Counted from the stretch's first letter, positions 2,868 to 35,464 are shown. The stretch is 64,000 nt of DNA from Candidatus Lindowbacteria bacterium RIFCSPLOWO2_12_FULL_62_27 (GCA_001784175.1 MFPR01000017.1:29024-93023); one strand, 5' to 3'. Numbers and translations: made by a program. Notes: generated by a model from the sequence alone, not told the origin.

Positions 2868-2884
2868 TTCGATGAGGCAATTCC

Positions 2885-8308: not shown

Positions 8309-8486
8309 TAGAATAATACGCAGAGAAAAAATAAAAATAGTGTTACGGCAATGGTGGACCAGATCGACATGCCGCTCTGAATGAAAAAGAAAAAAATAAT
8401 ACTGCAAATGATGAGGCCGGCTACAATTTTTATCTTTAAGAGATTGTCGACGTAAAAATTCGACGGCTTATTTTTATTCTCGTCCA

Positions 8487-9734: not shown

Positions 9735-9747
9735 GAATCCGGAAACC

Positions 9748-10521
9748 TCAGCTTCTCTTGATTATCTCTAAACAACCTCTTTTATATCTGCCCGATTTTT
9801 CCGTCATGACATTAATATCAGTATGAAAACTATCGGAACAAAAGTTAAATTTGCCTTGTTGTTTCTCGGATTTCCAATACTCGAGGCCGGCCATAGTTTC
9901 GATCCTACTGAACATATCCGGCACGACTTTAAGTGGCACGGACGGCATTTTTTCCAATTTCCCGAGTTTTAACAATTCGACTTTTAAGCTGTGTTCTTCG
10001 GGCGAAAATATTATTTGATCCGCGCCCTCCCTGATCGCCTGCAAGAGAATCATATGAACCAATCTGCTAACGGGGGCGTTATGGTGATCTACTATTTCTA
10101 AGTTGAATATTTTCGTGTCGTGCGTTTGCATGTCCTTTATGACTTGTTCTAATGACGTCAAGAGATCAGCCCTGTTTAAGAGTGTCGCATCGTATTGTGC
10201 TATAAGCTGCTCTATAGATTGAACAAAATCCGTACTATCTTCTGCCCTTTCTACATCCTTCCAAAAATCACGAGGGAAATACCCTTGTGCATGATGGGCA
10301 ATGGATCCGGATAGCCGCGTACCATGCGAAACTTCTTGGGCAATTCGAATGTTTATTCCGAGTGCCACAAAAACTATGAGATCCCGATCGAGAGACAAAA
10401 ATCGAACCACGTCTGTCAATCTATATCCTTCCTTGATGAGTTTGGCGAGTTTTGCGAGCCAGATGTATGCATATTTCTTCTTTATAAACTCCGGCGCGAA
10501 TTTAAATAGTTTCAGCCACAT
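9748..10521 (-). CDS. secretion-ATPase N-terminal (N2-like) domain protein without ATPase core; possible truncated gspE-like paralog
   Basis: C-terminal half RLVHMILLQAIREGADQIIFSPEEHSLKVELLKLGKLEKMPSVPLKVVPDMFSRIETMAGLEY matches the N2 region preceding the Walker A in GspE/PilB; no Walker A or Asp/His boxes; directly upstream of a GspF-like gene. Confidence 0.45.
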   Translation of the reverse strand: MWLKLFKFAPEFIKKKYAYIWLAKLAKLIKEGYRLTDVVRFLSLDRDLIVFVALGINIRIAQEVSHGTRLSGSIAHHAQGYFPRDFWKDVERAEDSTDFVQSIEQLIAQYDATLLNRADLLTSLEQVIKDMQTHDTKIFNLEIVDHHNAPVSRLVHMILLQAIREGADQIIFSPEEHSLKVELLKLGKLEKMPSVPLKVVPDMFSRIETMAGLEYWKSEKQQGKFNFCSDSFHTDINVMTEKSGRYKRGCLEIIKRS

Positions 10522-20387: not shown

Positions 20388-20440
20388 TTTCAATCTCCTC
20401 CCCCCTTGCGGGGGAGGCTGGGTGGGGGGTCGAGGACAAC

Positions 20441-21856
20441 ATGTCTGACATCGTCAACAAACTCTGGGGCTTTTGCCACACCCTCCGCCACGATGGCATC
20501 GATTACGGCGACTACATCGAACAGCTCACGTATCTGCTCTTCCTCAAAATGGCCGACGAACGCGAGGTCGTCATTCCCAAGGGCTTCGACTGGAATAGCC
20601 TCAAGACACGCTCCGGCACCGACTTGACCGACCACTACGCCGAAATCCTCCGAAAACTGCGCGAGGAAAAGGGACTGCTCGGCGACATCTTCGCCCAGTC
20701 CATGCCCCGGTTCAATAATCCCGTCAATCTCAAACGCCTCGTCACCATGATCGACGAGGAACACTGGTCGGCGATGGATGTCGACGTGAAAGGCGCCTGT
20801 TTCGAGGGACTGCTCGAGAAGGCGGCCAGCGAAGGCAAGAAAGGCGCCGGGCAATATTTCACGCCGCGCGTGCTCATTCAGTCGGTTGTCCGCGTCATGA
20901 AACCCGACCCGCGCGCCCGGACGGATTTCACCCTCTGCGACCCCGCCTGCGGCAGCGGTGGATTTCTCATGTCCGCCTATGAATGGCTCATGGGCGTCAC
21001 GAAAGGCGCGCTGGAGCGCGGCGAGATCAAACGCATCAAGACCAAGACCTACTTCGGCCAGGACCTCGTCCCGCGTCCCCGTCGCCTCGCGCTCATGAAT
21101 CTATATCTCCACGGCATCGTCCCAAAAATTTATCTCGGCGATGCCATCTATGAGCCCGATCGCGGCGAACTCTATGACTGCGTCCTCACCAACCCGCCCT
21201 TCGGCACCAAAGGCGCCAATCAAGCCCCTGACCGCGAGGATTTCACAATCGAGACCAGCAACAAACAGCTCAACTTTGTCCAGCACGTCGTGAACATCCT
21301 CAAAGACGGCGGCCGCGCCGCGATGGTTCTGCCGGACAACTGTCTCTTCGAAGGCAAAGCCGGCGAGGTCTTCAAGATTCTGATGCAGGACTGCAACCTC
21401 CACACGGTCCTGCGCCTGCCGCGCGGCACCTTCACGCCCTACAGTCAGGGCGTCAAAGCCAACGTCGTCTTTTTCCAAAAAGGCGTGAAGACCGAACACG
21501 TCTGGATTTTCGACGCCCGATCCAACGTCCCCGGCATCACCAAAAAAGACCGCCCCCTCGCCCGCGCGCACTTCGAGGAATTCGAAAAATGCTACGGCAA
21601 AGATCCCAACGGCCAGAGCAAACGCGAGGACACCGGCGAGTCGGGCCGGTTCCGCAAGTTCCACATCAGCGACATCGAAAACCGCGACTACAAACTCGAC
21701 ATCACCTGGCTCAAGGACGATTCCCTCGAAGACGCCGACGACCTCCCCGCCCCGGAAGAACTGGCCGCCGAAGCCATCACCGAACTCGAAGCCGCTGTGG
21801 ATGAACTCAAGGCAATCGTGGCACTTGTGGAAAATAATGAGGGCGTTGAGAAATGA
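20441..21856 (+). CDS. hsdM: type I restriction-modification N6-adenine DNA methyltransferase
   Basis: AdoMet motif DPACGSGGFL and catalytic NPPFG; N-terminus MSDIVNKLW typical of HsdM; ORF-track GTG at 20384 overlaps the hsdR stop. Confidence 0.9.
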   Translation: MSDIVNKLWGFCHTLRHDGIDYGDYIEQLTYLLFLKMADEREVVIPKGFDWNSLKTRSGTDLTDHYAEILRKLREEKGLLGDIFAQSMPRFNNPVNLKRLVTMIDEEHWSAMDVDVKGACFEGLLEKAASEGKKGAGQYFTPRVLIQSVVRVMKPDPRARTDFTLCDPACGSGGFLMSAYEWLMGVTKGALERGEIKRIKTKTYFGQDLVPRPRRLALMNLYLHGIVPKIYLGDAIYEPDRGELYDCVLTNPPFGTKGANQAPDREDFTIETSNKQLNFVQHVVNILKDGGRAAMVLPDNCLFEGKAGEVFKILMQDCNLHTVLRLPRGTFTPYSQGVKANVVFFQKGVKTEHVWIFDARSNVPGITKKDRPLARAHFEEFEKCYGKDPNGQSKREDTGESGRFRKFHISDIENRDYKLDITWLKDDSLEDADDLPAPEELAAEAITELEAAVDELKAIVALVENNEGVEK

Positions 21857-23358
21857 CCGACGAAATCCCGCTAGGGTGGACAAAAGCTCATATCTCCGAG
21901 ATATGTGATGTGTCGAAGGAACGCGGACGTGAGGGAATTACACCGTACCTCGAGATAGGGAACGTCGATATTGTGTCCAAGCGATACATGTTCACTGACA
22001 AGCTTTCGGTTAGAGGCTGTCAGATGGCGAAGCAAGATGATGTTCTTATTTCAAGGGTGAGACCAACCCGTGGGGCGATCGTTTGGATTCGTGAGAGCGA
22101 ATTGCACGTGTCTTCGGCTTTCACTGTACTGCGAGATTGTGGGACACTTTCAAAAAAATATCTTTGGTTATTTCTTGCTTGGAATCGTGCCTACCTCAAC
22201 CACCTTGGCGATAACTGCACTGGAACTATGTATCCGACCACTTCAGAGGATGCGATTACTGACTTTGATGTCCCTATCGCTCCACTTGCCGAGCAGAAGC
22301 GGATCGTCGAAAAACTGGACGCGGTGATGGCGCGGCTGGAGGCGTGCAAGTCCCGGCTGGCCCTCATCCCGCCCCTCCTCAAACGTTTCCGCCAATCCGT
22401 CCTCTCCGCCGCCTGCTCCGGGAAACTCACAGCCGATTGGCGCGAGCAAAATTTAATTATAGAAAATGCTGATGCTCTGCTCGACAGGATTAGAGAGAAG
22501 CGATTGGCATCAGCTCCGACCAAAAAAGAGAAGGCACGGATTGATGAAGTATTTGACGAGGGGAATCTGCGTATTGACGAGGGAGACCTTGGACTGGATG
22601 AGATTCCTGACACTTGGTTTGGCTGCCGCGTCGGCGCCGTTGGCGCGGTCTCCAACGGCAGCACGCCATCACGAAAGCGGCCGGATTTTTGGGGCGGAGC
22701 AATTCCGTGGGTCAGTTCGGGCGAAGTACGTAACAATATCATCTCGGCAACGCGCGAACGAATTACCAAAGCGGGCTACGAAGATAGTTCCGTGCGCCTC
22801 CTGCCCCGTGGCACCGTCCTGCTTGCCATGATTGGCGAGGGGAAAACCAGAGGGCAGACAGCCATCCTCCACATCGAGGCTACGATTAACCAGAACATCG
22901 CCGCCGTTGTTTTGGATCACGGTTTGCTTAGCTCCGCATACTTGTGGCGATGGTTTCAACTGCAATACGAAGCAACGCGAGAACGAGGCAGCGGGTCCGG
23001 CCCGCAGGCGTTGAACTGTCAACGAGTCCGTGAACTGCCCTTTGTTCTGCCCCCGTTGCCCGAACAACACGAAATCGTCTGTCGAGTGGAGGCGTTGTTC
23101 GCGATTGCGGACAAGATCGCGGAGCGCTACAAAAACGCCAAAGCCAACGTGGACAAACTGGCCCAATCCATCCTCACCAAAGCCTTCCGCGGCGAACTCT
23201 TGCCGCAGGACCCCTCAGACGAACCAGCCTCCTTACTCCTTGAGCGCATCCGCACACAGCGCATCAGCCGGGAAGCGCAGCAGAGCACCTCGAAGAAATC
23301 TCATCGGAATGGAATCAAAAGAGTGGCAAGACAGATACATAAGACTTTGAAAATATGA
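21853..23358 (+). CDS. hsdS: type I restriction-modification specificity subunit
   Basis: 4-bp overlap with hsdM; two target-recognition-domain halves separated by a conserved helical spacer (LAEQKRIVEKLDAVMARLE and LPEQHEIVCRVEALFAIADKI). Confidence 0.85.
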   Translation: MTDEIPLGWTKAHISEICDVSKERGREGITPYLEIGNVDIVSKRYMFTDKLSVRGCQMAKQDDVLISRVRPTRGAIVWIRESELHVSSAFTVLRDCGTLSKKYLWLFLAWNRAYLNHLGDNCTGTMYPTTSEDAITDFDVPIAPLAEQKRIVEKLDAVMARLEACKSRLALIPPLLKRFRQSVLSAACSGKLTADWREQNLIIENADALLDRIREKRLASAPTKKEKARIDEVFDEGNLRIDEGDLGLDEIPDTWFGCRVGAVGAVSNGSTPSRKRPDFWGGAIPWVSSGEVRNNIISATRERITKAGYEDSSVRLLPRGTVLLAMIGEGKTRGQTAILHIEATINQNIAAVVLDHGLLSSAYLWRWFQLQYEATRERGSGSGPQALNCQRVRELPFVLPPLPEQHEIVCRVEALFAIADKIAERYKNAKANVDKLAQSILTKAFRGELLPQDPSDEPASLLLERIRTQRISREAQQSTSKKSHRNGIKRVARQIHKTLKI

Positions 23359-23518: not shown

Positions 23519-23893
23519 TTGAATACCACGGTTCTGCATGTTGGCGAAAAGTTGAAGGTCGAGGCGGTGCTCAATCCCGACGGAAAATGTCCGGCGCAGG
23601 AATTTTTGGATGAGCAGTTGGAAAGTGACAGGCAGAAAATCAAGGCCTTATTTTTCATGGTTGCTCTCAAGGGCAATCAGTTTCGAAACGGGGAGAAATT
23701 CAAGAAGCTCGATGGCGAAATTTTCGAATTCAAGAGTTATCAAATTCGCCTCCTCTGTTTCTTTCACAGAGGCGGCAGGTTGATCATCACTCACGGACTC
23801 ATCAAACAGACGGATAACATGCGAAGAGGGGAAATCGAGAAGGCGGAGCGAATCCGCCAACAGTTTCTTGCGGAGGAGGTTTCCCATGGCTGA
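23519..23893 (+). CDS. higB: HigB/RelE-superfamily toxin (Gp49-like)
   Basis: EFKSYQIRLLCFFHRGGRLIITHGLIKQTD resembles the Gp49-like/HigB fold; overlaps the downstream HTH gene. Confidence 0.55.
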   Translation: MNTTVLHVGEKLKVEAVLNPDGKCPAQEFLDEQLESDRQKIKALFFMVALKGNQFRNGEKFKKLDGEIFEFKSYQIRLLCFFHRGGRLIITHGLIKQTDNMRRGEIEKAERIRQQFLAEEVSHG

Positions 23894-24284
23894 AGAAACG
23901 TGGTTTGAAAAGCATCACAAAACCGACGAGGAGAAGCGGCTGTTCGCGCAGGAAGTCGCCATTCTGTCCGCGCTTGAAGAAGTCTGCCGGGTGATGGAAA
24001 CGGAAAACGTCTCCCGGGCGGACATGGCGACCAAACTCGGAAAAAGCCGGGCGTTTGTAACCCAGGTGCTGCGCGGCAGCAACAACATCACGATTCGTAC
24101 GCTCGCCGATTTCGCATGGGCCTGCGGCCGCACCGTCGATATCCGACTTCGCAAAGGCGCCGGACATAACTTCGAGCCGACCGTGTATGCCGAGTGGAAA
24201 GAGTCGGCGGAAACGCAGGCGACGGTCAACCCGTCGGGACCGGCTCAACAAGTAGAAGATTTGGAATCGTCGCTGGCAGGATGA
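23886..24284 (+). CDS. higA: HigA-like HTH antitoxin with C-terminal extension
   Basis: HTH MATKLGKSRAFVTQVLRGSNNITIRTLADFA; aromatic-containing C-terminal tail (EPTVYAEWKES) compatible with a chaperone-addiction region; 8-bp overlap with toxin gene. Confidence 0.55.
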   Translation: MAEETWFEKHHKTDEEKRLFAQEVAILSALEEVCRVMETENVSRADMATKLGKSRAFVTQVLRGSNNITIRTLADFAWACGRTVDIRLRKGAGHNFEPTVYAEWKESAETQATVNPSGPAQQVEDLESSLAG

Positions 24285-24767: not shown

Positions 24768-25592
24768 TCACACCTGCTCGACGCTAAACCCCTGCTTGAA
24801 TCTGACTGTCTTGCCGCACTTCGCACAACCCGCCGTCGCGCCATTCAGCACACGGTGCTTTCCGACAAAATTCTCCGCATCGCATGATGGGCACGGGTAT
24901 TTGACCTGCCGGAGGTGGACAATTATTTCATTGCCTTTGCCGGGTTCTACGTCGTAAACCGCTTGGCAGTTGGTGATGGGACACTTCACTCCCCCTTCGG
25001 CTGTGAAACTGCCGGCGCGACGCTGTATCTGCTCTCCGCAGTCTTGGCACTGAAACTCGAAAAACTGTCCGAAATTAACCCTGAAAATCGGCGACGTCAA
25101 AATTGCCTCGCACTCATCGGCAACGGCCGCCGCCCGCTTGATCATTCCAGCCAGATTGGAAGTTTTGCCGGACTCGATCTGGTGGATCGTTAGAGCGTGG
25201 AGAAAATTCCCCAGCGCGTTGTGGTTATCGTTGGCCCACTTCCGCGAAAACCTTCTGTCCTGCCCCAGCATCTGCATTTCCTCGCCCGGTGGCGGGACAC
25301 CGTACGTGTGTTCGATCCCAACCGCCAAGCTGACGCTCTGGTCGGCATGCGGGTCAACTTCGCGCATCTCTGAAATTACGTGTCTGGGCTGCCACTTCTT
25401 GAGCGCATCATTTGGAACTTCTTTCAGGTACGCCAGCAGTTGATCATAGGTGATGTACTCAATCGTGAGACGCAACTCGAGGCAGGCATACCGGACAGAA
25501 GGTTCATCGCCCTTTGCCAACAAATTCCTTGCACGAGCGAGACATTCGCGGGCCACGCATCGCATATCGGGCACGGTTATCGTCGCCGTCAT
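24768..25592 (-). CDS. hypothetical protein with C-terminal multi-zinc-ribbon region
   Basis: Helical N-terminal half; C-terminal CQDCGEQ, CPITNC, CPSCDAEN, CAKCGK cysteine pairs. Confidence 0.5.
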   Translation of the reverse strand: MTATITVPDMRCVARECLARARNLLAKGDEPSVRYACLELRLTIEYITYDQLLAYLKEVPNDALKKWQPRHVISEMREVDPHADQSVSLAVGIEHTYGVPPPGEEMQMLGQDRRFSRKWANDNHNALGNFLHALTIHQIESGKTSNLAGMIKRAAAVADECEAILTSPIFRVNFGQFFEFQCQDCGEQIQRRAGSFTAEGGVKCPITNCQAVYDVEPGKGNEIIVHLRQVKYPCPSCDAENFVGKHRVLNGATAGCAKCGKTVRFKQGFSVEQV

Positions 25593-26146
25593 TTTGCCCC
25601 TCCCCCGGTGGCGTGAGTTATTCTGCCTGTTTTCGGCGGCCCAAACCCACCGGCTTCATCCTTCTTCCGAATAATCTCCTCCTGGTCTTTCTTGGCCTGT
25701 TTTGCCGTGTGCTTATCGCCTCTTCTTGAAGCCTCACTTTCCTCAACGACTTTTCTGGAAAAGGCTTTATCCAAGTCTTCAAAATTCTTAGGAGTCATTT
25801 CGTATTCCTCCTTTAATTGTTCGTTGCAGGACGTGTCAAAGGCCGCCCGCAAGTCAGTTTCCTTATCCAGCCGTGAATCCTCGTCGCTATCGACGTGAAC
25901 ACAAATACAGTTGCCGCCATTCTTCTCAACACATGGCCATTTCTCGTGGGATGGGATCCTATCCGAGAGGGAATCGGTTTGGCCGATATAACGAGGCGTA
26001 TGTGTGCCTCCGTTCGATCCGACCACACGTTTGCTGAATATGTAGACAGCCCCGACATCTTTGAACCTCGTGTCTGTGGTATATGCTTGGAACTTGTACT
26101 CCGTGCCACTTCCTCCTGCAAAAGTAACGTCAGAAATTTTTGACAT
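25589..26146 (-). CDS. GIY-YIG-like nuclease-domain protein
   Basis: GAVYIFSKR ... PRYIGQTDSLSDRIPSH matches the GIY-(10-11)-YIG plus Arg pattern; 4-bp overlap with the downstream zinc-ribbon gene. Confidence 0.45.
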   Translation of the reverse strand: MSKISDVTFAGGSGTEYKFQAYTTDTRFKDVGAVYIFSKRVVGSNGGTHTPRYIGQTDSLSDRIPSHEKWPCVEKNGGNCICVHVDSDEDSRLDKETDLRAAFDTSCNEQLKEEYEMTPKNFEDLDKAFSRKVVEESEASRRGDKHTAKQAKKDQEEIIRKKDEAGGFGPPKTGRITHATGGGAK

Positions 26147-26438
26147 GTGAAACTCCTTCATTATCGAAGCCCGCGGCTGCCGGCGGTCCCAGCCACCGAG
26201 GTGCTCATTGTCATCAAGCTTATGTCGTCTGCAACGCGACGACGTTCTGACCGTTCACGTAAACGTGCGCAACCCGTCGACCATCTAAATCGATGGCCTT
26301 GCTGCACAAAAAAACACTCATCACAGGGGTCGTTTCCCCCCTCTCCTCGACTGGATTGCTCTTGCTGTACGGAAGGCCGCCATGCTAACGTCACTCTGGA
26401 CTAGTGAGGGACGGGGGCGGCCTGCCGGATGCGCAAGC

Positions 26439-26466
26439 GGACGGCGTCGTTACCGTCCTTTTTTAT
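26439..26466 (+). terminator. intrinsic-terminator-like hairpin followed by T-run
   Basis: GGACGG-cgtcgtta-CCGTCC followed by TTTTTTAT; no convincing + strand CDS upstream. Confidence 0.3.
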
Positions 26467-26522
26467 GGCTGTTTCACAATCTGAAAAACAAACACCATAA
26501 AAGCCGTATCATTCATCTGGAC

Positions 26523-26774: not shown

Positions 26775-26846
26775 TTATCTATATGTACCATATCTGTAAA
26801 AAAAATCAAGGTTTTAGATGATAATGTTATGGGTCACAAAAAAAGC

Positions 26847-26875
26847 TTGACAAAAACATGAATTTATCATAGAGT
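26847..26875 (+). promoter_or_regulatory. putative sigma70-type promoter for the ATPase-subtilase operon
   Basis: Consensus TTGACA at 26847-26852, 17-nt spacer, TAGAGT -10-like hexamer; preceded by an A7 tract. Confidence 0.2.
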
Positions 26876-26881
26876 CACAAT

Positions 26882-28012
26882 ATGAAAGGTCTTCCGTTTA
26901 TAGGCCAATTGGCCAAAATGTCACTGAAATCTCACAACCAAGAGGCCACCCCTTATGTGGAGGCGCTTATCCGTTTGGCCGAGGAAGAAGGGGATGTTAA
27001 ATCGGCCAAGAAACTGGCGGCAATCCTCGAAGATGCCCGAAAACGGGGATTTGTCGGGTCTAATTCGTCCTCGTCGCCCGGTGATCGATATCCGATGACA
27101 ACGTCTTCCGCGACAATGGAAATGCCTGTATCGATATCGAAATTCCTGGAAGACTCCCTGCCGGCGCCGCCGGAACGGCCGACTCTGGATGCTTCCGTAT
27201 CGCAAGGTATTCGAGATTATATTTTTCATGCTTCACATGGATTGAAGGAGAACATCTTTTTTGTCGGACCTTCGGGTACAGGCAAGACCTTGACGGCTGC
27301 ATGGCTTGCCGCACAATTGGAAAAGCCGTTGTATCGTCTGGCTTATCCTCGGGTCTTCGATAGTTATCTTGGCAGAACCGCTAGAAATCTGGTCGCGGCG
27401 TTCGAGGAGGTTAAACTCCTGGGTGGGATCCTTTTTATTGACGAGGTGGACGCCATTTTGAGGTCTCGGGAACTTACAGGCGACCACGGCGAGATGCAGC
27501 GGACGGTCAATGTGCTGCTCATGGAAATCGATAGAGCCCGCGATGAATTACCGATCTTTGCCGCGACCAATCTGTTCCATAAGGTGGATACGGCGGTGGC
27601 CAGACGATTTCATCTGATACTCCACTTCAATTTGCCCTCTGACTTTTTGCGCGAGCATTATGTTCGACTGAAGGTGAAACAATATATTCCTTCGTACCTG
27701 ATGACGTCTTTGATCAGGCTGACGGAAGGATTCTCCTACGCGGATTTGGAAAAGTTGCTTGGTTGCATGCCGGATTTCGATTTACCTCCGACCGCGTTTT
27801 GGCCGGAATTCTTGCGCGTTCTTTCACAAACGTCGCCACCCGCGACCGCTCAATCTATTTCAGAATTCGCGCATTCGCCATCCCCGATACAGGCGAGAAA
27901 GCTGATTGAATGGGGTGTGGAGAAACAAGTCGTCACTCAGATGTTTGGGATATCTTCTGCCCTTCTGACGAAATGGATTCAGGGAGAGAAGCTGGAGGTA
28001 GTCCATGGCTGA
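26882..28012 (+). CDS. AAA+ ATPase (IetA-like)
   Basis: Walker A GPSGTGKT, Walker B ILFIDEVD, sensor region AATNLFHKVD. Confidence 0.75.
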   Translation: MKGLPFIGQLAKMSLKSHNQEATPYVEALIRLAEEEGDVKSAKKLAAILEDARKRGFVGSNSSSSPGDRYPMTTSSATMEMPVSISKFLEDSLPAPPERPTLDASVSQGIRDYIFHASHGLKENIFFVGPSGTGKTLTAAWLAAQLEKPLYRLAYPRVFDSYLGRTARNLVAAFEEVKLLGGILFIDEVDAILRSRELTGDHGEMQRTVNVLLMEIDRARDELPIFAATNLFHKVDTAVARRFHLILHFNLPSDFLREHYVRLKVKQYIPSYLMTSLIRLTEGFSYADLEKLLGCMPDFDLPPTAFWPEFLRVLSQTSPPATAQSISEFAHSPSPIQARKLIEWGVEKQVVTQMFGISSALLTKWIQGEKLEVVHG

Positions 28013-30413
28013 CGAACCGGGTCGGCCGCGAAGCAGCATCCTCCGGGTTGATAAGCGGAAACAGAGGACGAAAGAGTTTACCGATAAGCGGACTGGGGGT
28101 GGGTATAAAAAGATTTTTCCGGATGTACAAGAACGCTTGACCTTCGTCGCCCATCAACTGGATATCGCCATCGACGATTACAAGTCCGCTTACGCCCTGA
28201 CGGAGTCATCCGCCCCGTACCTGGTATTTGAATTGCAGCCATCGGCCATCGCCAAATCTCACAGCGCCTTGGACGTGTTAAATGATTGCGGGCTCGAAGT
28301 CGTTGCCACTCGGACTCTGGAGGAGAAGATTGTGCATGGGGTCGAAGGGGCCTTTAAGCGGCTCGGGGGCGATTTGGTGATGGCCGCGAAAGATGCCCCG
28401 ACGGACGAACAACTCAAAAAATTGGATGCGGAAGATAAGGAGATTCGGAAGATAAAAAGGGAAGAAAAACGACTTGGAAAAGAAAGTGATGCCAAGAAAA
28501 CGGTTCACCGCTATCTGCCGGGTGGGAAGTTTTCATGGAACGAGGTGGCCCAGTTCTCAACGTTCCGGAATGTCGGGTTCATACGTCCTGAAGAGAAAAT
28601 GATGGTTCCGGCCAATTTCGAATCGGCGCCGGTCTTTGTCTCGACATTCCCGTTGTGTGACAGCGCAAACGACGACATCAGAATATGGATTACATGCATT
28701 GATAGCATCATCAAGAAATACAAAACGGGTATCCGTGTTTTACGCGCCAATAAGAAATTCATGGAAAATATACAGGAACACGCGTCGGGTTTGGAATGCG
28801 ATTGGAATTTTAAAGTGAATCGGGAATACAAATCCCATCAAAAATCCTTTGTGTTTCTGATTGAAAATGCGGGTGTCAAAGCGGTGCGTGAGTTGGCCGG
28901 GTGCGAGTTTGTGCGTACGGTGGCTTTGGGACATATCCAAACAGATGTGTTGCGCGCATCTTCAAAGTTGTCCATACCATCCCCGCCTGCGGCGATTCGA
29001 TCTTTGCCGGCGGCGGGGTTGGTGGACACGGGTATTGCATCTCCTTCAAAATTGGATCCCTATATCACTTTCCGTGGTGGAGAAAATACTATCCGCAATA
29101 AAAAAGTGTTTCATGCAACGGACGTGGCCTATCTCCTTGTCCACAATGGCGCCGCCACGCCTTGGAAACCGGACGTGGCCGGATTGCCGTGTGCCATCCG
29201 CGACGTGGCCAGAATTGATGGTGGAGACGTTGACGGGGATCAGCTGCGGGCGGCCATCTGGGAGGCAACCCGGGATTCGTCGGGGGATGGAACTGTGAAT
29301 TTTTCGGCATATGTGAACGAGGGGAGGCGGGCGAAGCCTACGCCGGAAGTCTCTGTGTTTGGTGAACTGTTGGATGATATGTCATTGGAGGCCGAAAATC
29401 TCATGATCGTTTGTTCCGCCGGTAATTCCGGATCGGTGGGAATGGATTCTCCCGCCGACGGAGTTCATGTGGTTTCCGTAGGTGCCTTTACCCGCACACC
29501 GCAAGGAAACTTTGTACGGTCGGATTACTCCTGTCACGGCGGCGGGATCGCGCACAATGCCAAGCCCACTTTTGTTGTACCTGTCCATGACTTGAATAAT
29601 AAGGATTCTACCTGGGATACACTCATTCCATCGGGTTCGCCTGGCACAAGTTTCGCTGCTCCGGTTGCCACGCGAGTTCACGCCGGCCTACGGCATCGTG
29701 GATATAATCGAGATGAAGCTTTGGCGCTGATGGTGCACCACGCAAAACATCCGGGGAAGGATGTTTATTACAAGCCATCGTCAAAAGAAATTGAGGAGTT
29801 TGGGTTTGGGGTGGTTCCTTCTATCAATGAATGCGACCCGCCGGATGGTTCGAGGATAACGTTGATCTACGATGTTCCCGTCAAACTCGGCAAATTTTAT
29901 GAATTGAGATTGCCGATACCGCAAGAGCTTTCGGATTATTCGGCATTTGCCCGTCTGACTGCATACACTCGCGCGCCATGCAGCCGAGAAATGGGTGAGG
30001 AATATGTTGCCGCCGAGGTTCCGACACATCTGAGAATGTATAAAAAAGAGGTCAAAAAGAATGGAGTGCCATATGTGGATTTGCCGCCGGAGCCGGTCGA
30101 CTGGAAAGCCCGATACGAGGAACATCGCATTAAATATGGATGGAAATGGGGCACGCTGAGGCGATATAGCAAGACCATCCGGTTCGGAAAATATAAAGAA
30201 TTTGCTCTAAGGATTGGTCCGGTTATATGGCGGAAATGGGTACCAGGGACTGTGAAAGGACAAGAAACAAAGGTGCAGTGTGTTCTTTCGTTTTATCCGC
30301 TTGAGGGCGAAGCACCGCCGTTTTTTGATTTCTTCCGCAGGGCGTTTGTTGCCGCGCAGGTGGAAGTGGAGGTTCCATTGGAGGTGCAAATCGAATTGGA
30401 AGGTGAAAGTTGA
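28005..30413 (+). CDS. S8 subtilisin-family serine peptidase with N-terminal non-catalytic region (IetS-like)
   Basis: Asp motif GLVDTGIASP, His region FHATDVAYLLV, Asn CSAGNSGS, Ser GTSFAAPVA; 8-bp overlap with the ATPase gene. Confidence 0.75.
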   Translation: MADEPGRPRSSILRVDKRKQRTKEFTDKRTGGGYKKIFPDVQERLTFVAHQLDIAIDDYKSAYALTESSAPYLVFELQPSAIAKSHSALDVLNDCGLEVVATRTLEEKIVHGVEGAFKRLGGDLVMAAKDAPTDEQLKKLDAEDKEIRKIKREEKRLGKESDAKKTVHRYLPGGKFSWNEVAQFSTFRNVGFIRPEEKMMVPANFESAPVFVSTFPLCDSANDDIRIWITCIDSIIKKYKTGIRVLRANKKFMENIQEHASGLECDWNFKVNREYKSHQKSFVFLIENAGVKAVRELAGCEFVRTVALGHIQTDVLRASSKLSIPSPPAAIRSLPAAGLVDTGIASPSKLDPYITFRGGENTIRNKKVFHATDVAYLLVHNGAATPWKPDVAGLPCAIRDVARIDGGDVDGDQLRAAIWEATRDSSGDGTVNFSAYVNEGRRAKPTPEVSVFGELLDDMSLEAENLMIVCSAGNSGSVGMDSPADGVHVVSVGAFTRTPQGNFVRSDYSCHGGGIAHNAKPTFVVPVHDLNNKDSTWDTLIPSGSPGTSFAAPVATRVHAGLRHRGYNRDEALALMVHHAKHPGKDVYYKPSSKEIEEFGFGVVPSINECDPPDGSRITLIYDVPVKLGKFYELRLPIPQELSDYSAFARLTAYTRAPCSREMGEEYVAAEVPTHLRMYKKEVKKNGVPYVDLPPEPVDWKARYEEHRIKYGWKWGTLRRYSKTIRFGKYKEFALRIGPVIWRKWVPGTVKGQETKVQCVLSFYPLEGEAPPFFDFFRRAFVAAQVEVEVPLEVQIELEGES

Positions 30414-31075
30414 TGTCCCGTATACTCTTGAACCTCCCCCCTCACGACCGCCCCCGCGAGAAATTCAAAGCCAAAGGCTCCGAATCCCTGTCCGACCAGG
30501 AGCTATTGGCCATCCTGCTTGGCAGCGGCACCAAAAAATCGGACGTTTTGAAAGTCGCCGAACATATACTCAAAGAGATCGACGGCTCTAAGAAAAAATG
30601 GAGGTTGGCGGATCTTCAGAAAATCGAAGGTGTCGGCGAAGCCAAGGCCATGCAGATTCTGGCTGCGATGGAGTTTGCCCGGCGCCGCATCCAGCCCGCC
30701 GGATTTAAAATCTCGTTCCCGGCTGACGTCGTCCCCCTCATTCGCCACTACGCCGACCGCAAACAAGAACATCTGATCTGCGTCACTCTGAACGGCGCAA
30801 ACGAAATCATCGCCACCCGCGTCGTTACGGTCGGCCTCGCCGACAAAATCCAAGTCCACCCCCGTGAACTCTTCGCCGACCCCCTGACCGACCGCGCCAC
30901 CGCCGTCATCATCGCCCACAATCATACCGGCTCGGACCTCATCCCGACCCGCGAAGACATCGAGACCACCCGCCGCCTCAAGGCCGCCGGCGAAACGATT
31001 GGCATCAAATTGCTCGACCACATCATATTCAACAAAACCGGCTATTACAGTTTTCTCGAGAAAGATAATTTGTGA
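30410..31075 (+). CDS. radC: RadC-like JAB/MPN domain protein
   Basis: N-terminal HhH-like LSDQELLAILLGSG and JAB motif AVIIAHNHTGSDLIPTREDIETTRRL; ATGA overlap with subtilase stop. Confidence 0.8.
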   Translation: MMSRILLNLPPHDRPREKFKAKGSESLSDQELLAILLGSGTKKSDVLKVAEHILKEIDGSKKKWRLADLQKIEGVGEAKAMQILAAMEFARRRIQPAGFKISFPADVVPLIRHYADRKQEHLICVTLNGANEIIATRVVTVGLADKIQVHPRELFADPLTDRATAVIIAHNHTGSDLIPTREDIETTRRLKAAGETIGIKLLDHIIFNKTGYYSFLEKDNL

Positions 31076-31088
31076 ATTGAGGTAATCC

Positions 31089-32723
31089 ATGGCCACCGGT
31101 CGCAATCAGCCGTGCCCCTGCGGAAGCGCAAGGAAATACAAGAGGTGTTGCGGCAATCCGCTAAAAATGTCGCTTAAGGGCATTCATCGCCCGACAGAAA
31201 GCCGCGTCGCGGACGGAATCGCCAAAGCGCTCGAACATCACAAGGCCTCTGAACTCATCCGATGTCAACAGCAGGGACTGGGCAAGCCGATCATCTCTAC
31301 AGAACATCAGGGCAGGCGCCTCGTGGCTGTTGGAAACAAAGTCTACCATTCGACCAAATTCAAAACATTCCCTGATTTTCTGTTCGCTTATGTAAAAGGC
31401 AAACTCGGTTCGGAGTGGGGCAATGCGGAGATCGTCAAGCCCCTGGAGGAGAGGCATATTATTCTGCAATGGTACAACGAGTATTACCTCTTCCAAAAAC
31501 GGCACTTCGACAAAGACCACGAAATCCAGTCTTTTCCGGCAACGGGTGTGGTCAATTGTTATCTCGGCCTTGCCTACAGTCTGTACTTGCTGGAGCACAA
31601 CGTCGAGCTCCAGGACCGTTTGCTCAAACGGCTAAAAGACTCGGCAAATTTCCAGGGAGCGTATTACGAATTAATCGTCGCAAACTGTCTGATTCGAGCC
31701 GGATTTGATTTGGTTCTCGAAGATGAAACCGATCGTGCCTCGAAGCATTGTGAATTTTCCGCCGTTTCACAGAAGACTGGAAAAAAATACTGGGTCGAAG
31801 CCAAGATGCGGGCGGTTTCCGGCATTCTCGGTAAATCCGACCATGACGGCACCCAATCGTTGGAACCGACTTCCTCGCTGATACAGCATGTGAACAAGGC
31901 GCTTGCAAAGCCGGCGGCGGATGAACGACTCATTTTCATCGATCTCAACACCGATCCGCCCGACGGGCAGAGTCTGCCGGATTGGATGGAACGAGCCGCA
32001 CAAAAACTTGAAGGCCTCGAAAAAACTTACCAAAAAGGGGAGCGCGCTTATATTTTTGTGACGAACATGGCGTTTCACCGGCGCTTGACGGACGCCCGCC
32101 CGGCTGGCGCCGTTTTGGTTCACGGATTTGGAATTCCCGATTTTGGAAGGCCGGGGGAATATCGGCTTACGGAAATTTACAGGAAAAGACAAAAACATAA
32201 GGATGCCTATCACATTTTTGAAGCCGTCAAAGAATATCCGAAATTTCCTTCGACGTTTGACGGTAGTTTGCCATCCGAAACCTTTGGTGATGGAGGTGGT
32301 CGCATTATTATTGGAGAAACGTATTTTTTTCCTGATATGGACGAGAAGGGAATTACAGGGACCGTCACTTCTGCCATGGTGAGTGAAACTGAAAAGACAG
32401 AACATTTGGGCATTACGACAAAAGATAACGGGTCATTTATTCTCAGCAGGCCGATGACAGAGGCGGAACTGACAGATTACAAAAACCATCCCGAGGCGTT
32501 TTTTGGTGTGATTCTTCAACCACCAGGGAACGCGAATGACCCGTACGAATTATTTGAATTTTTTGTTGGATGTTATAAAAACTCGTCTAAAGAGAAATTG
32601 CTAGAATTTTTAAAGGATTCGCAGGACACCGACTCCCTCGCGGCGTTGCCTCATATGGATTTGGTACTCGAATACTGCGAACGATTGGTCGCTGCCGCAG
32701 TGGCTGGCCAAGAAAACAGATGA
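31089..32723 (+). CDS. SEC-C-motif protein with PD-(D/E)xK-like core
   Basis: N-terminal NQPCPCGSARKYKRCCG; central FDLVLEDETD ... KYWVEAKM resembling a D-E-K nuclease triad. Confidence 0.55.
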   Translation: MATGRNQPCPCGSARKYKRCCGNPLKMSLKGIHRPTESRVADGIAKALEHHKASELIRCQQQGLGKPIISTEHQGRRLVAVGNKVYHSTKFKTFPDFLFAYVKGKLGSEWGNAEIVKPLEERHIILQWYNEYYLFQKRHFDKDHEIQSFPATGVVNCYLGLAYSLYLLEHNVELQDRLLKRLKDSANFQGAYYELIVANCLIRAGFDLVLEDETDRASKHCEFSAVSQKTGKKYWVEAKMRAVSGILGKSDHDGTQSLEPTSSLIQHVNKALAKPAADERLIFIDLNTDPPDGQSLPDWMERAAQKLEGLEKTYQKGERAYIFVTNMAFHRRLTDARPAGAVLVHGFGIPDFGRPGEYRLTEIYRKRQKHKDAYHIFEAVKEYPKFPSTFDGSLPSETFGDGGGRIIIGETYFFPDMDEKGITGTVTSAMVSETEKTEHLGITTKDNGSFILSRPMTEAELTDYKNHPEAFFGVILQPPGNANDPYELFEFFVGCYKNSSKEKLLEFLKDSQDTDSLAALPHMDLVLEYCERLVAAAVAGQENR

Positions 32724-34162: not shown

Positions 34163-35335
34163 ATGCGCGTCAGGGTCATTCAACGAAAGGGCGCTTGGTG
34201 GATCGACTATTACTATCTGGACGAAACGGGCGCTTTGCGAAGAAAATACGAAAAGATCGGCCCGGGCAGGAAATTTGCGGAGACGGTGGCCGCCAAGCGC
34301 CGCGTGGAAATTCTGGAAGGAAAATTTCTGGACCGCCGTCGTTTCAAGCCCATCACGTTTGCGGACTTTATCCGGGAATTCGACGACAAGCACATGCGGT
34401 TTTTGAGAATTTACCGGCATGGCGGCAAGCAGTATCTCCGCCATCTGGTTTCCTTCTTTGGCGCAAGGCAACTCATGTCCATTTCGCAATTCGACGCCGC
34501 GCGGTTCAAGGTCCATTTCATGAGCCGGAAAACGCGCGCTGGAACCCCGCCGGCGAAATCGACCTTCAACCGGTATCTGTCGACTCTCATTTGCATCATG
34601 AACAAAGCGGTCGAATGGGGACATCTCCCGCAAAATCCGCTGTCGCGGGTGAAGAAGGAGCGAGAGGACGAAAAGCCGATGCGAATTTTAACGGCCGCCG
34701 AAAAAGTACGTCTCCTCGAAGTCGCGCTGGAGGATGGCCAGGAAGCGCACTCGCTCATCACGTTGGCGCTCAACACAGGTCTTAGGCGTGGTGATCTTCT
34801 GCGTCTTCAAATGAACGCGGCCATGATGCGTGAGCGAGAAATCCATCTCACGATGCAAAAAACCCGCCACGCCATTCATGTGCCGCTCAACAGAGCCGCC
34901 GAGTCTGCGATCAAAGCGTTGAACCGGGGCGACGACGAATTGTTATTCCCACCGAGGCGCGCGGACTCGAAAGACTCGCGCTGGCACTATGCATTGTGGC
35001 TAAAACTTGCAAATAGGGCCCAACTTCGTTATTGTCGTTTCCATGATTTGCGTCACACCTTCGCCACGGATCTTTTGCGGCGGGGCGTGAACATCAAAGT
35101 GGTCAAGGAGCTCCTGGGTCACCGGTCGATCCAAACGACAATGCGATATTTGCATTTCGTGGAGATCGACCGAAGGGCCGCGGTGGACACGCTGGAACCC
35201 GCCGCCGACGCCCGTGAGCCCCGTATGGCCCGGCAGTTTCCAATGCCAACGAATGCCGACTTACAGAACGCAACTGGAAACCTACTGGAGACCAAATGGA
35301 GACCAGAACGTCAAGTCGAGGAAGCGATCGCATGA
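34163..35335 (+). CDS. int: tyrosine-type site-specific recombinase/integrase
   Basis: C-terminal catalytic region HDLRHTFATDLLRRGVNIKVVKELLGHRSIQTTMRYLH with R, H-x-x-R and Y. Confidence 0.9.
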   Translation: MRVRVIQRKGAWWIDYYYLDETGALRRKYEKIGPGRKFAETVAAKRRVEILEGKFLDRRRFKPITFADFIREFDDKHMRFLRIYRHGGKQYLRHLVSFFGARQLMSISQFDAARFKVHFMSRKTRAGTPPAKSTFNRYLSTLICIMNKAVEWGHLPQNPLSRVKKEREDEKPMRILTAAEKVRLLEVALEDGQEAHSLITLALNTGLRRGDLLRLQMNAAMMREREIHLTMQKTRHAIHVPLNRAAESAIKALNRGDDELLFPPRRADSKDSRWHYALWLKLANRAQLRYCRFHDLRHTFATDLLRRGVNIKVVKELLGHRSIQTTMRYLHFVEIDRRAAVDTLEPAADAREPRMARQFPMPTNADLQNATGNLLETKWRPERQVEEAIA

Positions 35336-35380: not shown

Positions 35381-35464
35381 GGGGAGGTGCTCCAGTGGAC
35401 AACGAGAGCAGACTGTAAATCTGCCGCCCTTCGGGCTACGGAGGTTCGAATCCTCCCCTCCCCA
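35381..35464 (+). tRNA. tRNA-Tyr (anticodon GTA), class II with long variable arm
   Basis: Acceptor stem GGGGAGG/CCTCCCC, anticodon stem GCAGA/TCTGC with loop CTGTAAA, variable-arm hairpin GCCC-ttcg-GGGC, T-arm GGAGG-TTCGAAT-CCTCC, discriminator A; CCA not encoded. Confidence 0.8.

What the first reader, a model, noticed from the sequence alone, without database searches (positions are those of the whole stretch)
26882..30413. IetAS-like AAA+ ATPase / subtilase pair
The AAA+ ATPase (Walker A GPSGTGKT, Walker B ILFIDEVD) is translationally coupled to an 802-aa protein with an S8 catalytic triad arrangement (DTG, HATDVA, SAGNSG, GTSFAAP). This architecture and gene order matches IetA/IetS of the Agrobacterium Ti plasmid, later reported as an anti-phage system.
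Basis: partly seen in the sequence, partly recalled or inferred. Interest (0 to 1): 0.5.

Follow-up and report, generated by a model that had tools for sequence, protein, structure and literature searches.

The report
Divergent IetAS ATPase–protease defence pair
This is a real but very divergent copy of the known IetAS toxin–antitoxin / anti-phage gene pair (an AAA+ ATPase that restrains a large intracellular subtilisin-like protease), sitting on a horizontally acquired island in a Candidatus Lindowbacteria genome; it is an ordinary kind of system in an unusual, very rare sequence clade.

Summary

- **Family:** PADLOC profiles call them IetA (6e-44) and IetS (1e-39).
- **Nearest relatives:** all 60 nearest relatives, from an exhaustive search of 1.84 billion proteins, are IetS-like.
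- **Pairing:** the IetS homologue in each of 13 other distinct loci has an AAA ATPase gene directly upstream.
- **Active sites:** the triad D341/H370/S549, oxyanion N474, Walker A/B, a pore-loop-like SYLG motif and the arginine pair are all conserved.

Both proteins fall far below the NCBIfam equivalog cutoffs. IetS has no significant pairwise similarity to the pTiC58 S8 protein, and only about five lineages of this clade were found.

A RadC gene is translationally coupled to `ietS` here and in the 77% relative, and homology between the two stops at the `radC` stop codon. RadC is absent at 43–48% identity, so it is probably a local add-on.

Most likely function is an abortive-infection/addiction module. 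IetA would keep a zymogen-like IetS inactive until a phage cue releases it. That mechanism is inferred, and it is unknown for the whole family. This is a new member of a known kind, of modest interest.

The parts
26847..26875 (+). Promoter-like site TTGACA-17 nt-TAGAGT. It ends 6 nt before the ietA ATG and no Shine-Dalgarno sequence follows, so the transcript may be leaderless.
   Evidence: This is the best consensus match in 26100-33000 (10 of 12 positions); sequence read. It is a consensus match only. The total number of sites (8) is not above the shuffled expectation (6.2), and Lindowbacteria promoters are unknown.
26882..28012 (+). ietA: classic-clade AAA+ ATPase, 376 aa, the presumed antitoxin/regulator. 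Features: N-terminal helical region (aa 1-~95); AAA core with Walker A GPSGTGKT (27266-27289); pore-loop-1-like S-Y-L-G (27362-27373); Walker B D187-E188 (within 27425-27448); sensor-1 N230 (27563-27571); R241-R242 (27602-27610); conserved HTH-like C-terminal tail (27890-28009).
   Evidence: Pfam AAA 3.5e-26. PADLOC IetA PDLC02196 6.3e-44, covering residues 7-293. The motif residues are invariant in alignments with canonical IetA and with clade members. Nearest solved relatives are p97/Cdc48/Afg2-type AAA domains. The tail is conserved in the clade but has no Pfam match.
28005..28012 (+). 8-nt overlap ATGGCTGA between the ietA stop and the ietS start, preceded by GGAGG: translational coupling.
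   Evidence: The same 8-nt overlap is seen in L001, L014 and Dongshaea; in L012 and P0003's contig the two genes abut.
28005..29000 (+). ietS N-terminal region (aa 1-332): alpha/beta modules of ferredoxin-like/propeptide-like type separated by a long helical hairpin. It contains the family-wide A-x-A-K-S-H motif (28245-28262). This is the fastest-evolving part of the protein, and it carries insertions relative to canonical IetS.
29001..29819 (+). ietS subtilase (S8) catalytic core (aa ~333-605): D341 (29025-29027), H370 (29112-29114), oxyanion N474 (29424-29426), S549 (29649-29651).
   Evidence: Pfam Peptidase_S8 3.5e-8. D341, H370, N474 and S549 are invariant across all 60 family members. Foldseek top hits are subtilases (3afg E 8e-21, 5fax, 1wmd).
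29820..30413 (+). ietS C-terminal beta-rich domain (aa ~606-802), with conserved E705, K714-W715 and R742.
   Evidence: The AF2 secondary structure is mostly beta strand. The best structural matches are subtilases that also carry a C-terminal beta domain (Tk-SP, KP-43, SubHal). The PADLOC IetS model extends to residue 778. Conserved columns are listed.
30410..31075 (+). radC (UPF0758 N-terminal HhH domain plus RadC/JAB domain, 220-221 aa). Its start (TTG 30410 or ATG 30413) overlaps the ietS stop (30411-30413). It is co-inherited with ietAS in the closest relative and is probably a local accessory or passenger gene rather than a core component.
   Evidence: Pfam RadC 2.2e-34 and UPF0758_N 1.2e-21. 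NCBIfam PRK00024 scores 188.2 bits against a cutoff of 180. Junction read. L001 has the same coupling, and nucleotide homology (80.5%) ends at window 31073, the radC stop. dN/dS 0.12. RadC is absent next to ietS in P0003's contig, L012 and L014 and in the canonical loci.

Best explanation
The locus is a two-gene IetAS-type toxin-antitoxin / abortive-infection module carried on a low-GC, horizontally acquired island next to tRNA-Tyr in a Candidatus Lindowbacteria genome.

**Components**
- IetS is a cytoplasmic, zymogen-like subtilase of 802 aa. It has an N-terminal regulatory region with propeptide-like alpha/beta modules, an intact S8 core and a C-terminal beta domain.
- IetA is a classic-clade AAA+ ATPase with intact ATP-hydrolysis motifs and a pore-loop-like Tyr-Leu-Gly. 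It is made in fixed proportion to IetS through translational coupling.

**Proposed mechanism**
- IetA uses ATP to remodel or hold IetS, probably through the IetS N-terminal region, and so keeps the protease harmless.
- A phage-derived cue, or loss of the island and with it of IetA supply, stops this restraint.
- Free IetS then cleaves host and/or phage proteins and stops growth before phage progeny are released.

**Shown here:** gene structure, family assignment, conserved pairing, intact catalytic and ATPase residues, purifying selection, island context.

**Taken from the literature on relatives:** toxin and antitoxin roles, the abortive-infection phenotype, and triggering by a phage protein.

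**Inferred:** the direction and physical nature of the IetA-IetS interaction, the zymogen idea, and the substrates.
For: **Family**
- PADLOC: IetA 6.3e-44, IetS 1.1e-39.
- The exhaustive phmmer search returned 172 hits at E <= 1e-3. Most of the 150 listed are about 700-860 aa, and the rest appear to be fragments.
- All 60 hits tested match the PADLOC IetS models.

**Pairing**
- An AAA ATPase gene lies directly upstream in 13 other distinct loci spanning Gamma- and Alphaproteobacteria, Actinomycetota and metagenomes, and in pTiC58.
- IetA and IetS diverge in parallel across the clade, at 46-49% and 43-47% identity to the window.

**Active sites**
- D341/H370/N474/S549 are invariant in all 60 sequences.
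- Walker A/B, S-Y-L-G, N230 and R241/R242 are invariant.
- IetA's nearest solved relatives are the p97/Cdc48/Afg2 unfoldases.

**Fold**
- The IetS model is confident.
- It resembles pro-subtilisins that have C-terminal beta domains.
- The N-terminal modules match subtilase pro-domain/inhibitor folds among other ferredoxin-like folds.

**Selection:** dN/dS is 0.17-0.29.

**Context**
- GC is about 0.50 in the island against 0.65 in the flanking core.
- An integrase gene (34163..35335) and tRNA-Tyr (35381..35464) lie close by.
- The same island carries a type I R-M system and a Gp49/HTH TA pair.

**Literature**
- The AAA-ATPase is the antitoxin and the S8 protease the toxin in the pTiC58 and Mycoplasma pairs, and deleting the antitoxin alone is lethal (PMC8562856).
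- An ietA mutant of ietHAS could not be constructed, and protease activity is required for defence (PMC13069673).
- B. cereus ietAS acts by abortive infection and is triggered by the SPbeta protein YosG (10.1101/2022.08.27.505566).
Against: - No experiment exists for this clade.
- Both proteins are far below the NCBIfam equivalog cutoffs.
- IetS has no significant pairwise similarity to the pTiC58 protein, so transferring function from characterised members relies on profile-level homology plus conserved architecture.
- The host is an uncultivated lineage and no phage of it was examined here.
Confidence: 0.8

Rival explanations
1. The pair works mainly as an addiction (post-segregational killing) module that stabilises the integrative island, which was the role first described for ietAS on pTiC58. 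Phage defence would be absent or secondary.
For: - The pair sits on an integrase- and tRNA-associated low-GC island.
- Relatives are common on conjugative and mobilizable plasmids.
- Plasmid-stability and TA roles are reported for the pTiC58 and Mycoplasma pairs (PMC8562856; PMC13069673).
Against: - The neighbourhood here and in clade relatives is rich in defence genes: type I R-M, AbiE, CBASS-like SMODS/SAVED, Bub-like, GmrSD.
- Tested IetAS homologues do protect against phage.
- The two roles are not mutually exclusive, so this is a matter of emphasis rather than a true alternative.
Confidence: 0.3
2. The unit is a three-gene IetA-IetS-RadC variant. The RadC/JAB protein would be a functional third component, for example a second effector or a modulator of IetS/IetA, by analogy with the helicase in ietHAS.
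For: - The radC start overlaps the ietS stop both in the window and in L001.
- Window-L001 homology begins inside ietA (the contig start) and ends exactly at the radC stop, with different genes beyond it.
- radC is under strong purifying selection (dN/dS 0.12).
- A three-gene IetAS variant has precedent (ietHAS, PMC13069673).
Against: - RadC does not adjoin ietS in clade members at 43-48% identity (P0003's contig, L012/L013, L014) or in any canonical locus examined.
- The RadC in L012 is only 29% identical to the window's and is coupled to a type I R-M operon instead.
- The only supporting relative is 80% identical at the nucleotide level, so the shared synteny may simply be recent common descent.
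- RadC genes are common passengers on mobile elements (own knowledge).
Confidence: 0.12
3. The divergent IetAS clade is functionally tied to an adjacent type I restriction-modification system. It would act as a second-line 'guard' that fires when restriction is inhibited, comparable to PrrC with EcoprrI.
For: - A type I R-M system lies beside the pair in all four clade lineages with enough context: the window, 3.5 kb upstream; P0003's contig; L012; L014.
- None was seen in the canonical loci examined.
- Non-random co-localisation of ietAS with type III R-M is reported in E. coli (10.1101/2022.08.21.504612).
Against: - There are only four lineages and no statistics are possible.
- Type I R-M systems are very common in defence islands.
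- The window's HsdM is only 28% identical to those of L012 and L014, so the linkage is not a single inherited module.
- In the window, about six small genes separate hsdS from ietA.
Confidence: 0.08
4. The genes are a housekeeping or secreted subtilase with an unrelated chaperone-type ATPase that merely happen to be adjacent.
For: At the domain level the genes are simply 'AAA' and 'Peptidase_S8'.
Against: - All nearest relatives are IetS-type proteins, most of about 750-850 aa, and not housekeeping subtilases.
- The pairing is conserved across phyla.
- The N-terminus (MADEPGRPRSS...) is charged, not a signal peptide (read by eye).
- The genes overlap by 8 nt.
- They lie on an island of foreign composition.
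Confidence: 0.02

Closest known systems
IetAS anti-phage defence system (Gao et al. 2020; PADLOC IetA/IetS models; NCBIfam IteA NF042959 / IteS NF042956)
   Same: - Gene order is the same, ATPase then protease, on one strand and coupled.
- Sizes match: about 370 aa and about 800 aa.
- IetA has an AAA core plus an HTH-like C-terminal tail.
- IetS has an N-terminal region with the AxAKSH motif, an S8 core with an intact triad, and a C-terminal beta domain with the KW motif.
- The best profile hits are the IetA and IetS models.
   Different: - The sequences are very divergent: about 20-28% identity to canonical IetS and 21-26% to canonical IetA.
- NCBIfam scores are 138 bits against a cutoff of 510, and 106 against 900.
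- The N-terminal region carries insertions, which account for the ~800 aa length against ~750.
- Only about five lineages of the clade were found in public data.
- The host is a Candidatus Lindowbacteria MAG.
pTiC58 ietA/ietS plasmid-stability toxin-antitoxin pair (Yamamoto et al. 2009, J Bacteriol 191:4656; the presumed genes are at NC_003065.3 97873-101373)
   Same: - An ATP-binding protein sits directly upstream of an S8 peptidase of about 830 aa.
- Both pTiC58 proteins hit the PADLOC IetA and IetS models.
- The IetA AAA cores are 36% identical.
   Different: - There is no significant pairwise similarity between the two IetS proteins (E 0.015).
- They best match different PADLOC sub-models: PDLC02198 for pTiC58 and PDLC02197 for the window.
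- pTiC58 IetA is shorter (328 aa).
- pTiC58 is a plasmid, whereas this copy is on a chromosomal island.
ietHAS (Liu-DS4), the three-gene IetAS variant with an SNF2-family helicase (PMC13069673)
   Same: The IetA/IetS core carries one extra gene. The paper reports that IetA behaves as the antitoxin and that protease activity is required for defence.
   Different: - The extra gene here is a RadC/JAB protein downstream of ietS, not an SNF2 helicase.
- No helicase gene adjoins the pair; the nearest one is the hsdR of a separate type I R-M operon about 6.5 kb upstream.
- The extra gene is not conserved across the clade.
Mycoplasma TA132/133, an AAA-ATPase (353 aa) / subtilisin-like protease (757 aa) toxin-antitoxin module (PMC8562856)
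   Same: It has the same two-gene architecture and sizes. The toxin and antitoxin roles were shown experimentally, and deleting the antitoxin alone is lethal.
   Different: No sequence comparison was made here. The host and clade are different, and the Mycoplasma module is chromosomal in a minimal genome.
TRIP13/Pch2-HORMA regulation in CBASS (a functional analogy only)
   Same: An AAA+ remodelling ATPase acts as a negative regulator of an immune effector pathway. IetA's second-best PADLOC family is TRIP13, at 1.4e-14.
   Different: There is no HORMA protein, cyclase or nucleotide signal here, and the effector is a protease encoded right next to the ATPase. The similarity to TRIP13 is just the shared AAA core.

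Membership tests
IetAS (broad family as defined by the PADLOC IetA/IetS profiles) | An AAA+ ATPase that matches an IetA profile | tested here: met
   PDLC02196 IetA: E 6.3e-44, 148.9 bits, residues 7-293 against profile positions 7-294 of 374. Three further IetA models also hit.
IetAS (broad family as defined by the PADLOC IetA/IetS profiles) | A large (~750-850 aa) S8 peptidase that matches an IetS profile beyond the generic subtilase core | tested here: met
   PDLC02197 IetS: E 1.1e-39, 134.4 bits, residues 248-778 against profile positions 170-729 of 749. Four further IetS models also hit. The N-terminal AxAKSH and C-terminal KW motifs are shared with the family.
IetAS (broad family as defined by the PADLOC IetA/IetS profiles) | The two genes are adjacent on the same strand, with the ATPase upstream | tested here: met
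   There is an 8-nt overlap, ATGGCTGA. The same order was found in 13 other distinct loci.
IetAS (broad family as defined by the PADLOC IetA/IetS profiles) | Intact catalytic residues in both proteins (Walker A/B; Asp-His-Ser triad) | tested here: met
   K135 and D187/E188 are invariant. D341, H370, N474 and S549 are invariant in all 60 sequences.
IetAS (broad family as defined by the PADLOC IetA/IetS profiles) | Toxin (IetS) and antitoxin (IetA) behaviour, and phage protection | not testable with these tools
   This needs expression and infection experiments. It has been shown only for distant relatives.
NCBIfam equivalogs IteA (NF042959) and IteS (NF042956) | Whole-protein score at or above the curated cutoff (510 bits for IteA, 900 bits for IteS) | tested here: not met
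   IteA scores 138.1 bits and IteS 106.1 bits. The pair is therefore not an equivalog of the reference E. coli-type pair, although these are still the top NCBIfam hits.
pTiC58 ietAS (founding pair) | Direct pairwise sequence similarity of both proteins | tested here: inconclusive
   IetA: 36% identity over 138 aa, E 3e-23. IetS: best BLASTP E is 0.015, over 62 aa. The relation shows only through shared PADLOC profiles. The identity of the pTiC58 genes as ietAS rests on annotation and memory.
ietHAS (three-gene variant with helicase) | An SNF2-family helicase gene (ietH) in the operon | tested here: not met
   No helicase gene adjoins ietA or ietS in the window. The only helicase-like gene nearby is hsdR at 17703..20387, which belongs to a type I R-M operon.
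Classic-clade AAA+ protein-remodelling ATPases (p97/Cdc48/FtsH/PAN type) | Walker A and B, an aromatic-hydrophobic-Gly pore loop 1, a sensor-1 Asn, and second-region-of-homology arginines | tested here: met
   GPSGTGKT, D187-E188, Y162-L163-G164, N230 and R241-R242 are present. The best PDB and NCBIfam matches are p97 D2, Cdc48, PAN and FtsH. Hexamer formation and substrate threading were not tested.
Subtilases with an I9-type pro-domain (zymogens) | An N-terminal beta-alpha-beta-beta-alpha-beta pro-domain that docks on the catalytic domain | tested here: inconclusive
RadC / UPF0758 family (third gene) | NCBIfam PRK00024 score at or above cutoff, and a JAB-domain HxH...D motif | tested here: met
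   188.2 bits against a cutoff of 180. Pfam RadC 2.2e-34 and UPF0758_N 1.2e-21. H170-N-H172 and D183 are present. The motif varies from the usual form: it reads HNHTGSDLIPTRED, whereas L012's RadC has HNHPSG...PS.ED.

The most novel reading that the evidence does not exclude
In this rare clade, the IetAS core may have recruited a RadC/JAB-domain protein as a working third component. It is translationally coupled, it is co-mobilised as a block whose right-hand boundary falls exactly at the radC stop, and it is under strong purifying selection. That would make an 'IetAS-RadC' variant analogous to ietHAS. It would also give the enigmatic RadC family a defined role in a protease-based abortive-infection system.
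Probability: 0.1. Interest if true: 0.6.

Novelty: new member of a known kind. Interest (0 to 1): 0.3.

Why it matters
IetAS is a validated anti-phage and toxin-antitoxin system whose mechanism was still described as unknown in 2026 (PMC13069673).

A very divergent clade with the same architecture helps separate what is essential from what is incidental. The features kept at about 20% identity are:
- the AxAKSH motif in the IetS N-terminal region;
- the catalytic triad and oxyanion Asn;
- the C-terminal KW motif;
- the IetA Tyr-Leu-Gly pore-loop-like motif;
- the IetA C-terminal tail.

These are direct targets for mutagenesis and for modelling the IetA–IetS complex.

The finding also extends IetAS to a candidate phylum (Lindowbacteria). 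It gives a confident model of full-length IetS that looks like a pro-subtilisin, which suggests a testable zymogen-plus-unfoldase logic.

Beyond that, the locus is what standard defence-annotation tools would already call.

Tried and rejected
1. **Locus retrieval.** `search for related loci` with IetS alone and with the three-sequence clade alignment found no relatives in genome contigs or metagenome contigs. The 60-sequence alignment was too diverse to seed a scan. More clade members were reached through IetA homologues instead.

2. **Word-indexed search.** With IetS it found only the protein itself and one 77% relative. The exhaustive search was needed to reach the rest.

3. **RadC as a conserved third component.** Rejected as a general feature. 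RadC does not adjoin `ietS` at 43-48% identity or in canonical loci. The RadC in L012 is only 29% identical and is linked to the R-M operon.

4. **A single co-inherited R-M + IetAS module.** Rejected. The window's HsdM is 28% identical to those of L012 and L014, while those two are 56% identical to each other.

5. **IetA C-terminal tail as a recognised HTH.** There was no Pfam hit even at E <= 1. It remains a by-eye reading, supported only by conservation.

6. **Island boundary.** No repeat of the tRNA-Tyr region longer than 12 nt exists elsewhere in the window, so the far end of the island was not located.

8. **Yamamoto et al. 2009.** The paper is not held in the library.

Full report
**1. 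Observation**

The window has two long, overlapping ORFs on the + strand at exactly the stated coordinates: 26882..28012 (376 aa) and 28005..30413 (802 aa).
- The junction reads GGAGGTAGTCC-ATGGCTGA. The second gene's ATG lies 8 nt inside the first gene, and a Shine-Dalgarno-like GGAGG sits 6 nt upstream.
- All six quoted motifs were confirmed by translation: GPSGTGKT, ILFIDEVD, DTG, HATDVA, SAGNSG and GTSFAAP.
- Pfam gives AAA (E 3.5e-26) for the first protein and Peptidase_S8 (E 3.5e-8, residues 459-585 only) for the second.
A full-length `radC` (30410/30413..31075) starts within the `ietS` stop codon (TTGATG).

**2. Family assignment**

| Library | IetA | IetS |
|---|---|---|
| PADLOC, best model | PDLC02196, 6.3e-44 | PDLC02197, 1.1e-39 |
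| NCBIfam, top hit | IteA, 138 bits (cutoff 510) | IteS, 106 bits (cutoff 900) |

- PADLOC returns only IetA models for the first protein (then TRIP13 at 1.4e-14) and only IetS models for the second.
- The NCBIfam scores are far below the equivalog cutoffs, so this is not an equivalog of the reference pair.
- An exhaustive phmmer search of 1.84 billion representative proteins found 172 hits at E <= 1e-3. Only two passed 1e-30: the protein itself and P0003 (48% identity). The rest score 80 bits or less, and most of the 150 listed are 700-860 aa long.
- All 60 of the best hits match the PADLOC IetS models. The nearest relatives are therefore IetS proteins and not housekeeping subtilases.
- The catalytic D341, H370 and S549 and the oxyanion N474 are invariant across those 60 sequences.

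**3. Conserved pairing**

An AAA ATPase gene of 362-400 aa lies directly upstream, on the same strand, of the IetS homologue in each of these loci.
- Five plasmids: Dongshaea (annotated `iteS`), Bradyrhizobium, Methylotuvimicrobium, Mycolicibacterium and Agrobacterium vitis.
- Four metagenome loci of canonical type.
- Four other loci of the divergent clade: L001, P0003's contig, L012/L013 and L014. A fifth, partial contig (L015) shows the same order.
- pTiC58 itself, with an ATP-binding protein of 328 aa followed by an S8 peptidase of 836 aa at 97873-101373.

Within the clade the two proteins diverge in step. IetA is 46-49% identical to the window's and IetS 43-47%.

**4. Relation to pTiC58**

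- The IetA AAA cores are 36% identical over 138 aa (E 3e-23).
- The IetS proteins show no significant pairwise similarity (E 0.015).
- Both connect through the PADLOC IetS profiles. The window protein actually scores higher (134 bits on PDLC02197) than the pTiC58 protein does on its own best model (86 bits on PDLC02198).
- So 'matches pTiC58 IetA/IetS' is right for architecture and family, and not for close sequence similarity.
- I could not read Yamamoto et al. 2009. That this pTiC58 pair is `ietAS` rests on annotation and my memory.

**5. Anatomy of IetA**

- IetA has the Walker A and B motifs, sensor-1 N230 and the arginine pair R241/R242.
- It also has an invariant S-Y-L-G at the position of pore loop 1.
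- Its nearest solved relatives are the p97/Cdc48/Afg2/Rix7 AAA domains. Among NCBIfam families the next best are PAN and FtsH. It is therefore a classic-clade protein-remodelling ATPase.
- The last ~40 residues (QARKLIEWGVEKQVVTQMFGISSALLTKWIQGEK) are conserved within the clade. They align with a similar tail in canonical IetA.
- By eye the tail looks like a helix-turn-helix, but no Pfam model matches it.

**6. Anatomy of IetS**

- AlphaFold2 with the 60-sequence alignment gives a confident model (pLDDT 84.8, pTM 0.90).
- The best PDB matches are pro-subtilisins and subtilases with a C-terminal beta domain: ProN-Tk-SP 3afg (E 8e-21, 605 aligned columns), SubHal and KP-43.
- No IetS-like full-length structure and no IetA-IetS complex is in the PDB.
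- Residues 1-332 were modelled separately (pLDDT 79). They consist of alpha/beta modules and a long helical hairpin.
- The only near-invariant motif outside the protease core is A-x-A-K-S-H at residues 81-86.

**7. Selection**

Comparison with the 77% relative L001 gives these dN/dS values.

| Gene or region | dN/dS |
|---|---|
| `ietS`, whole | 0.23 |
| `ietS` N-terminal region | 0.29 |
| `ietS` S8 core | 0.17 |
| `ietS` C-terminal domain | 0.19 |
| `radC` | 0.12 |
| `ietA` tail | 0.26 |

All the genes are maintained by selection. The N-terminal region evolves fastest, which would fit a regulatory or sensing part.

**8. Context**

- The window comes from a Candidatus Lindowbacteria MAG; the source name is truncated at RIFCSPLOWO2_12_FULL_. 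It is probably the taxon ending _62_27.
- The pair lies in a region of about 0.50 GC, against about 0.65 in the core that begins near 36 kb.
- Close by are an excisionase-like HTH gene, a tyrosine integrase (34163..35335) and tRNA-Tyr (35381..35464).
- The same region carries a type I R-M operon, hsdR-M-S at 17703..23358. It also holds a Gp49/HTH toxin-antitoxin pair and a Mu-like portal remnant.
- No att repeat of the tRNA was found in the window.
- The best promoter-like site (TTGACA-17-TAGAGT) ends 6 nt before the `ietA` ATG.
- No + strand terminator is predicted between `ietA` and the SEC-C gene that starts 13 nt after `radC`.

**9. RadC and R-M associations**

- L001 matches the window at 80.5% nucleotide identity from its contig start (inside `ietA`) to window 31073, the `radC` stop. 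Beyond that the genes differ. So `ietA`-`ietS`-`radC` were inherited as a block in these two genomes.
- At 43-48% identity RadC is not adjacent. P0003's contig has an HsdR-like helicase and AbiE after `ietS`. L012 has SMODS/SAVED genes. L014 has an HNH gene.
- L012 does carry a RadC, but it is only 29% identical to the window's and is coupled to the end of a type I R-M operon.
- A type I R-M system is adjacent in all four clade lineages with enough context. The window's HsdM is only 28% identical to the others, so this is not one inherited module.
- Both associations are recorded as leads, not findings.

**10. Mechanism**

From the literature on relatives:
- The ATPase is the antitoxin and the protease the toxin, and deleting the antitoxin alone is lethal (PMC8562856).
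- An `ietA` mutant of ietHAS could not be constructed, and protease activity is needed for defence. [quoted passage not shown]
- B. cereus ietAS acts by abortive infection and becomes toxic when the SPbeta protein YosG is expressed (10.1101/2022.08.27.505566).

Combining this with the anatomy found here, I propose the following.
- IetA, made in fixed ratio to IetS through translational coupling, uses ATP to remodel or hold a zymogen-like IetS through its N-terminal region.
- A phage cue, or loss of IetA supply, releases active IetS.
- IetS then cleaves cellular and/or phage proteins and aborts the infection.

Architecture, residues, pairing and selection are shown here. The toxin and antitoxin roles and the abortive-infection behaviour are transferred from distant relatives. 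The direction and nature of the IetA-IetS interaction, the zymogen idea and the substrates are inference.

**11. Verdict**

- The locus is a new, very divergent member of a known kind of system. Only about five lineages of its clade were found: the window with L001, P0003's contig, L012/L013, L014 and the partial L015.
- Standard defence-annotation profiles already recognise it, and nothing in it contradicts what is known of IetAS.
- Its main value is comparative, in showing which features survive at about 20% identity. The RadC coupling is a secondary lead.
- Interest is 0.3.

Noticed in passing
window 17703..23358; L012 2899..9479; L014 851..4739; P0003 contig (JGI 3300071358) 7552..9909: A type I restriction-modification system lies next to the IetAS pair in all four lineages of the divergent clade that have enough context. 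None was seen in the canonical IetAS loci examined. The window's HsdM is only 28% identical to those of L012 and L014, which are 56% identical to each other, so this is not one co-inherited module.
   Followed up: partly
window 30410..31075; L001 2695..3357; L012 2198..2902 (-): A RadC/JAB gene is translationally coupled to ietS in the window and in L001. In L012 a RadC only 29% identical is coupled to the last gene of a type I R-M operon. The window and L001 copies carry an unusual HNH(T/I)G...PT.ED motif in place of HNHPSG...PS.ED.
   Followed up: partly
window 31089..32723 (+): A 544-aa gene starts 13 nt after radC, with no predicted terminator in between. Only its N-terminal SEC-C zinc motif has a profile hit. 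By eye, the middle of the protein has a D...E-x-K ('VEAKMR') PD-(D/E)XK-like motif. The gene is not present after radC in L001.
   Followed up: partly
window 28245..28262 (IetS residues 81-86): The motif A-x-A-K-S-H(-R-P) in the IetS N-terminal region is the only near-invariant motif outside the protease core across the whole family, and its role is unknown. It could be a processing site, a pseudo-substrate or an IetA contact.
   Followed up: partly
window 26847..26882: The best sigma-70-like site (TTGACA-17-TAGAGT) ends 6 nt before the ietA ATG and no Shine-Dalgarno sequence follows, which suggests a leaderless ietA transcript. This is a consensus match only.
   Followed up: no
window 27890..28009 (IetA residues 337-376): The IetA C-terminal tail is conserved in the clade and aligns with canonical IetA tails. 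By eye it looks like a helix-turn-helix, which could mean operon autoregulation as in type II antitoxins. There is no Pfam match.
   Followed up: partly
window 24768..26161 (-): Two overlapping minus-strand genes of unknown function (274 aa and 190 aa) lie between the R-M/TA genes and ietA. By eye the 190-aa protein has a GIY-YIG-like 'VYIF...YIGQT...R..H' pattern, and the 274-aa protein has CxxC pairs. Neither has a significant profile hit.
   Followed up: no
window 23519..24284 (+): A Gp49-like (HigB/RelE-type) toxin gene overlaps an HTH_3 antitoxin-like gene directly after hsdS. This is a second toxin-antitoxin pair on the island.
   Followed up: no
window 12545..13906 (-) and the low-GC region 1..~35400: A Mu-like portal homologue (Pfam Portal_Mu, 4.8e-8) lies in the same region of atypical composition. 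The foreign DNA upstream of tRNA-Tyr may therefore be a mosaic of prophage remnant and defence island. Its far boundary was not found in the window.
   Followed up: partly
L012 13612..18306; P0003 contig 1754..3592: Relatives of this IetAS clade sit beside other defence systems. L012 has three SMODS genes plus a SAVED gene (CBASS-like) and a GmrSD gene. P0003's contig has a Bub-like ThiF/Multi_ubiq/BubE cluster and AbiE.
   Followed up: no
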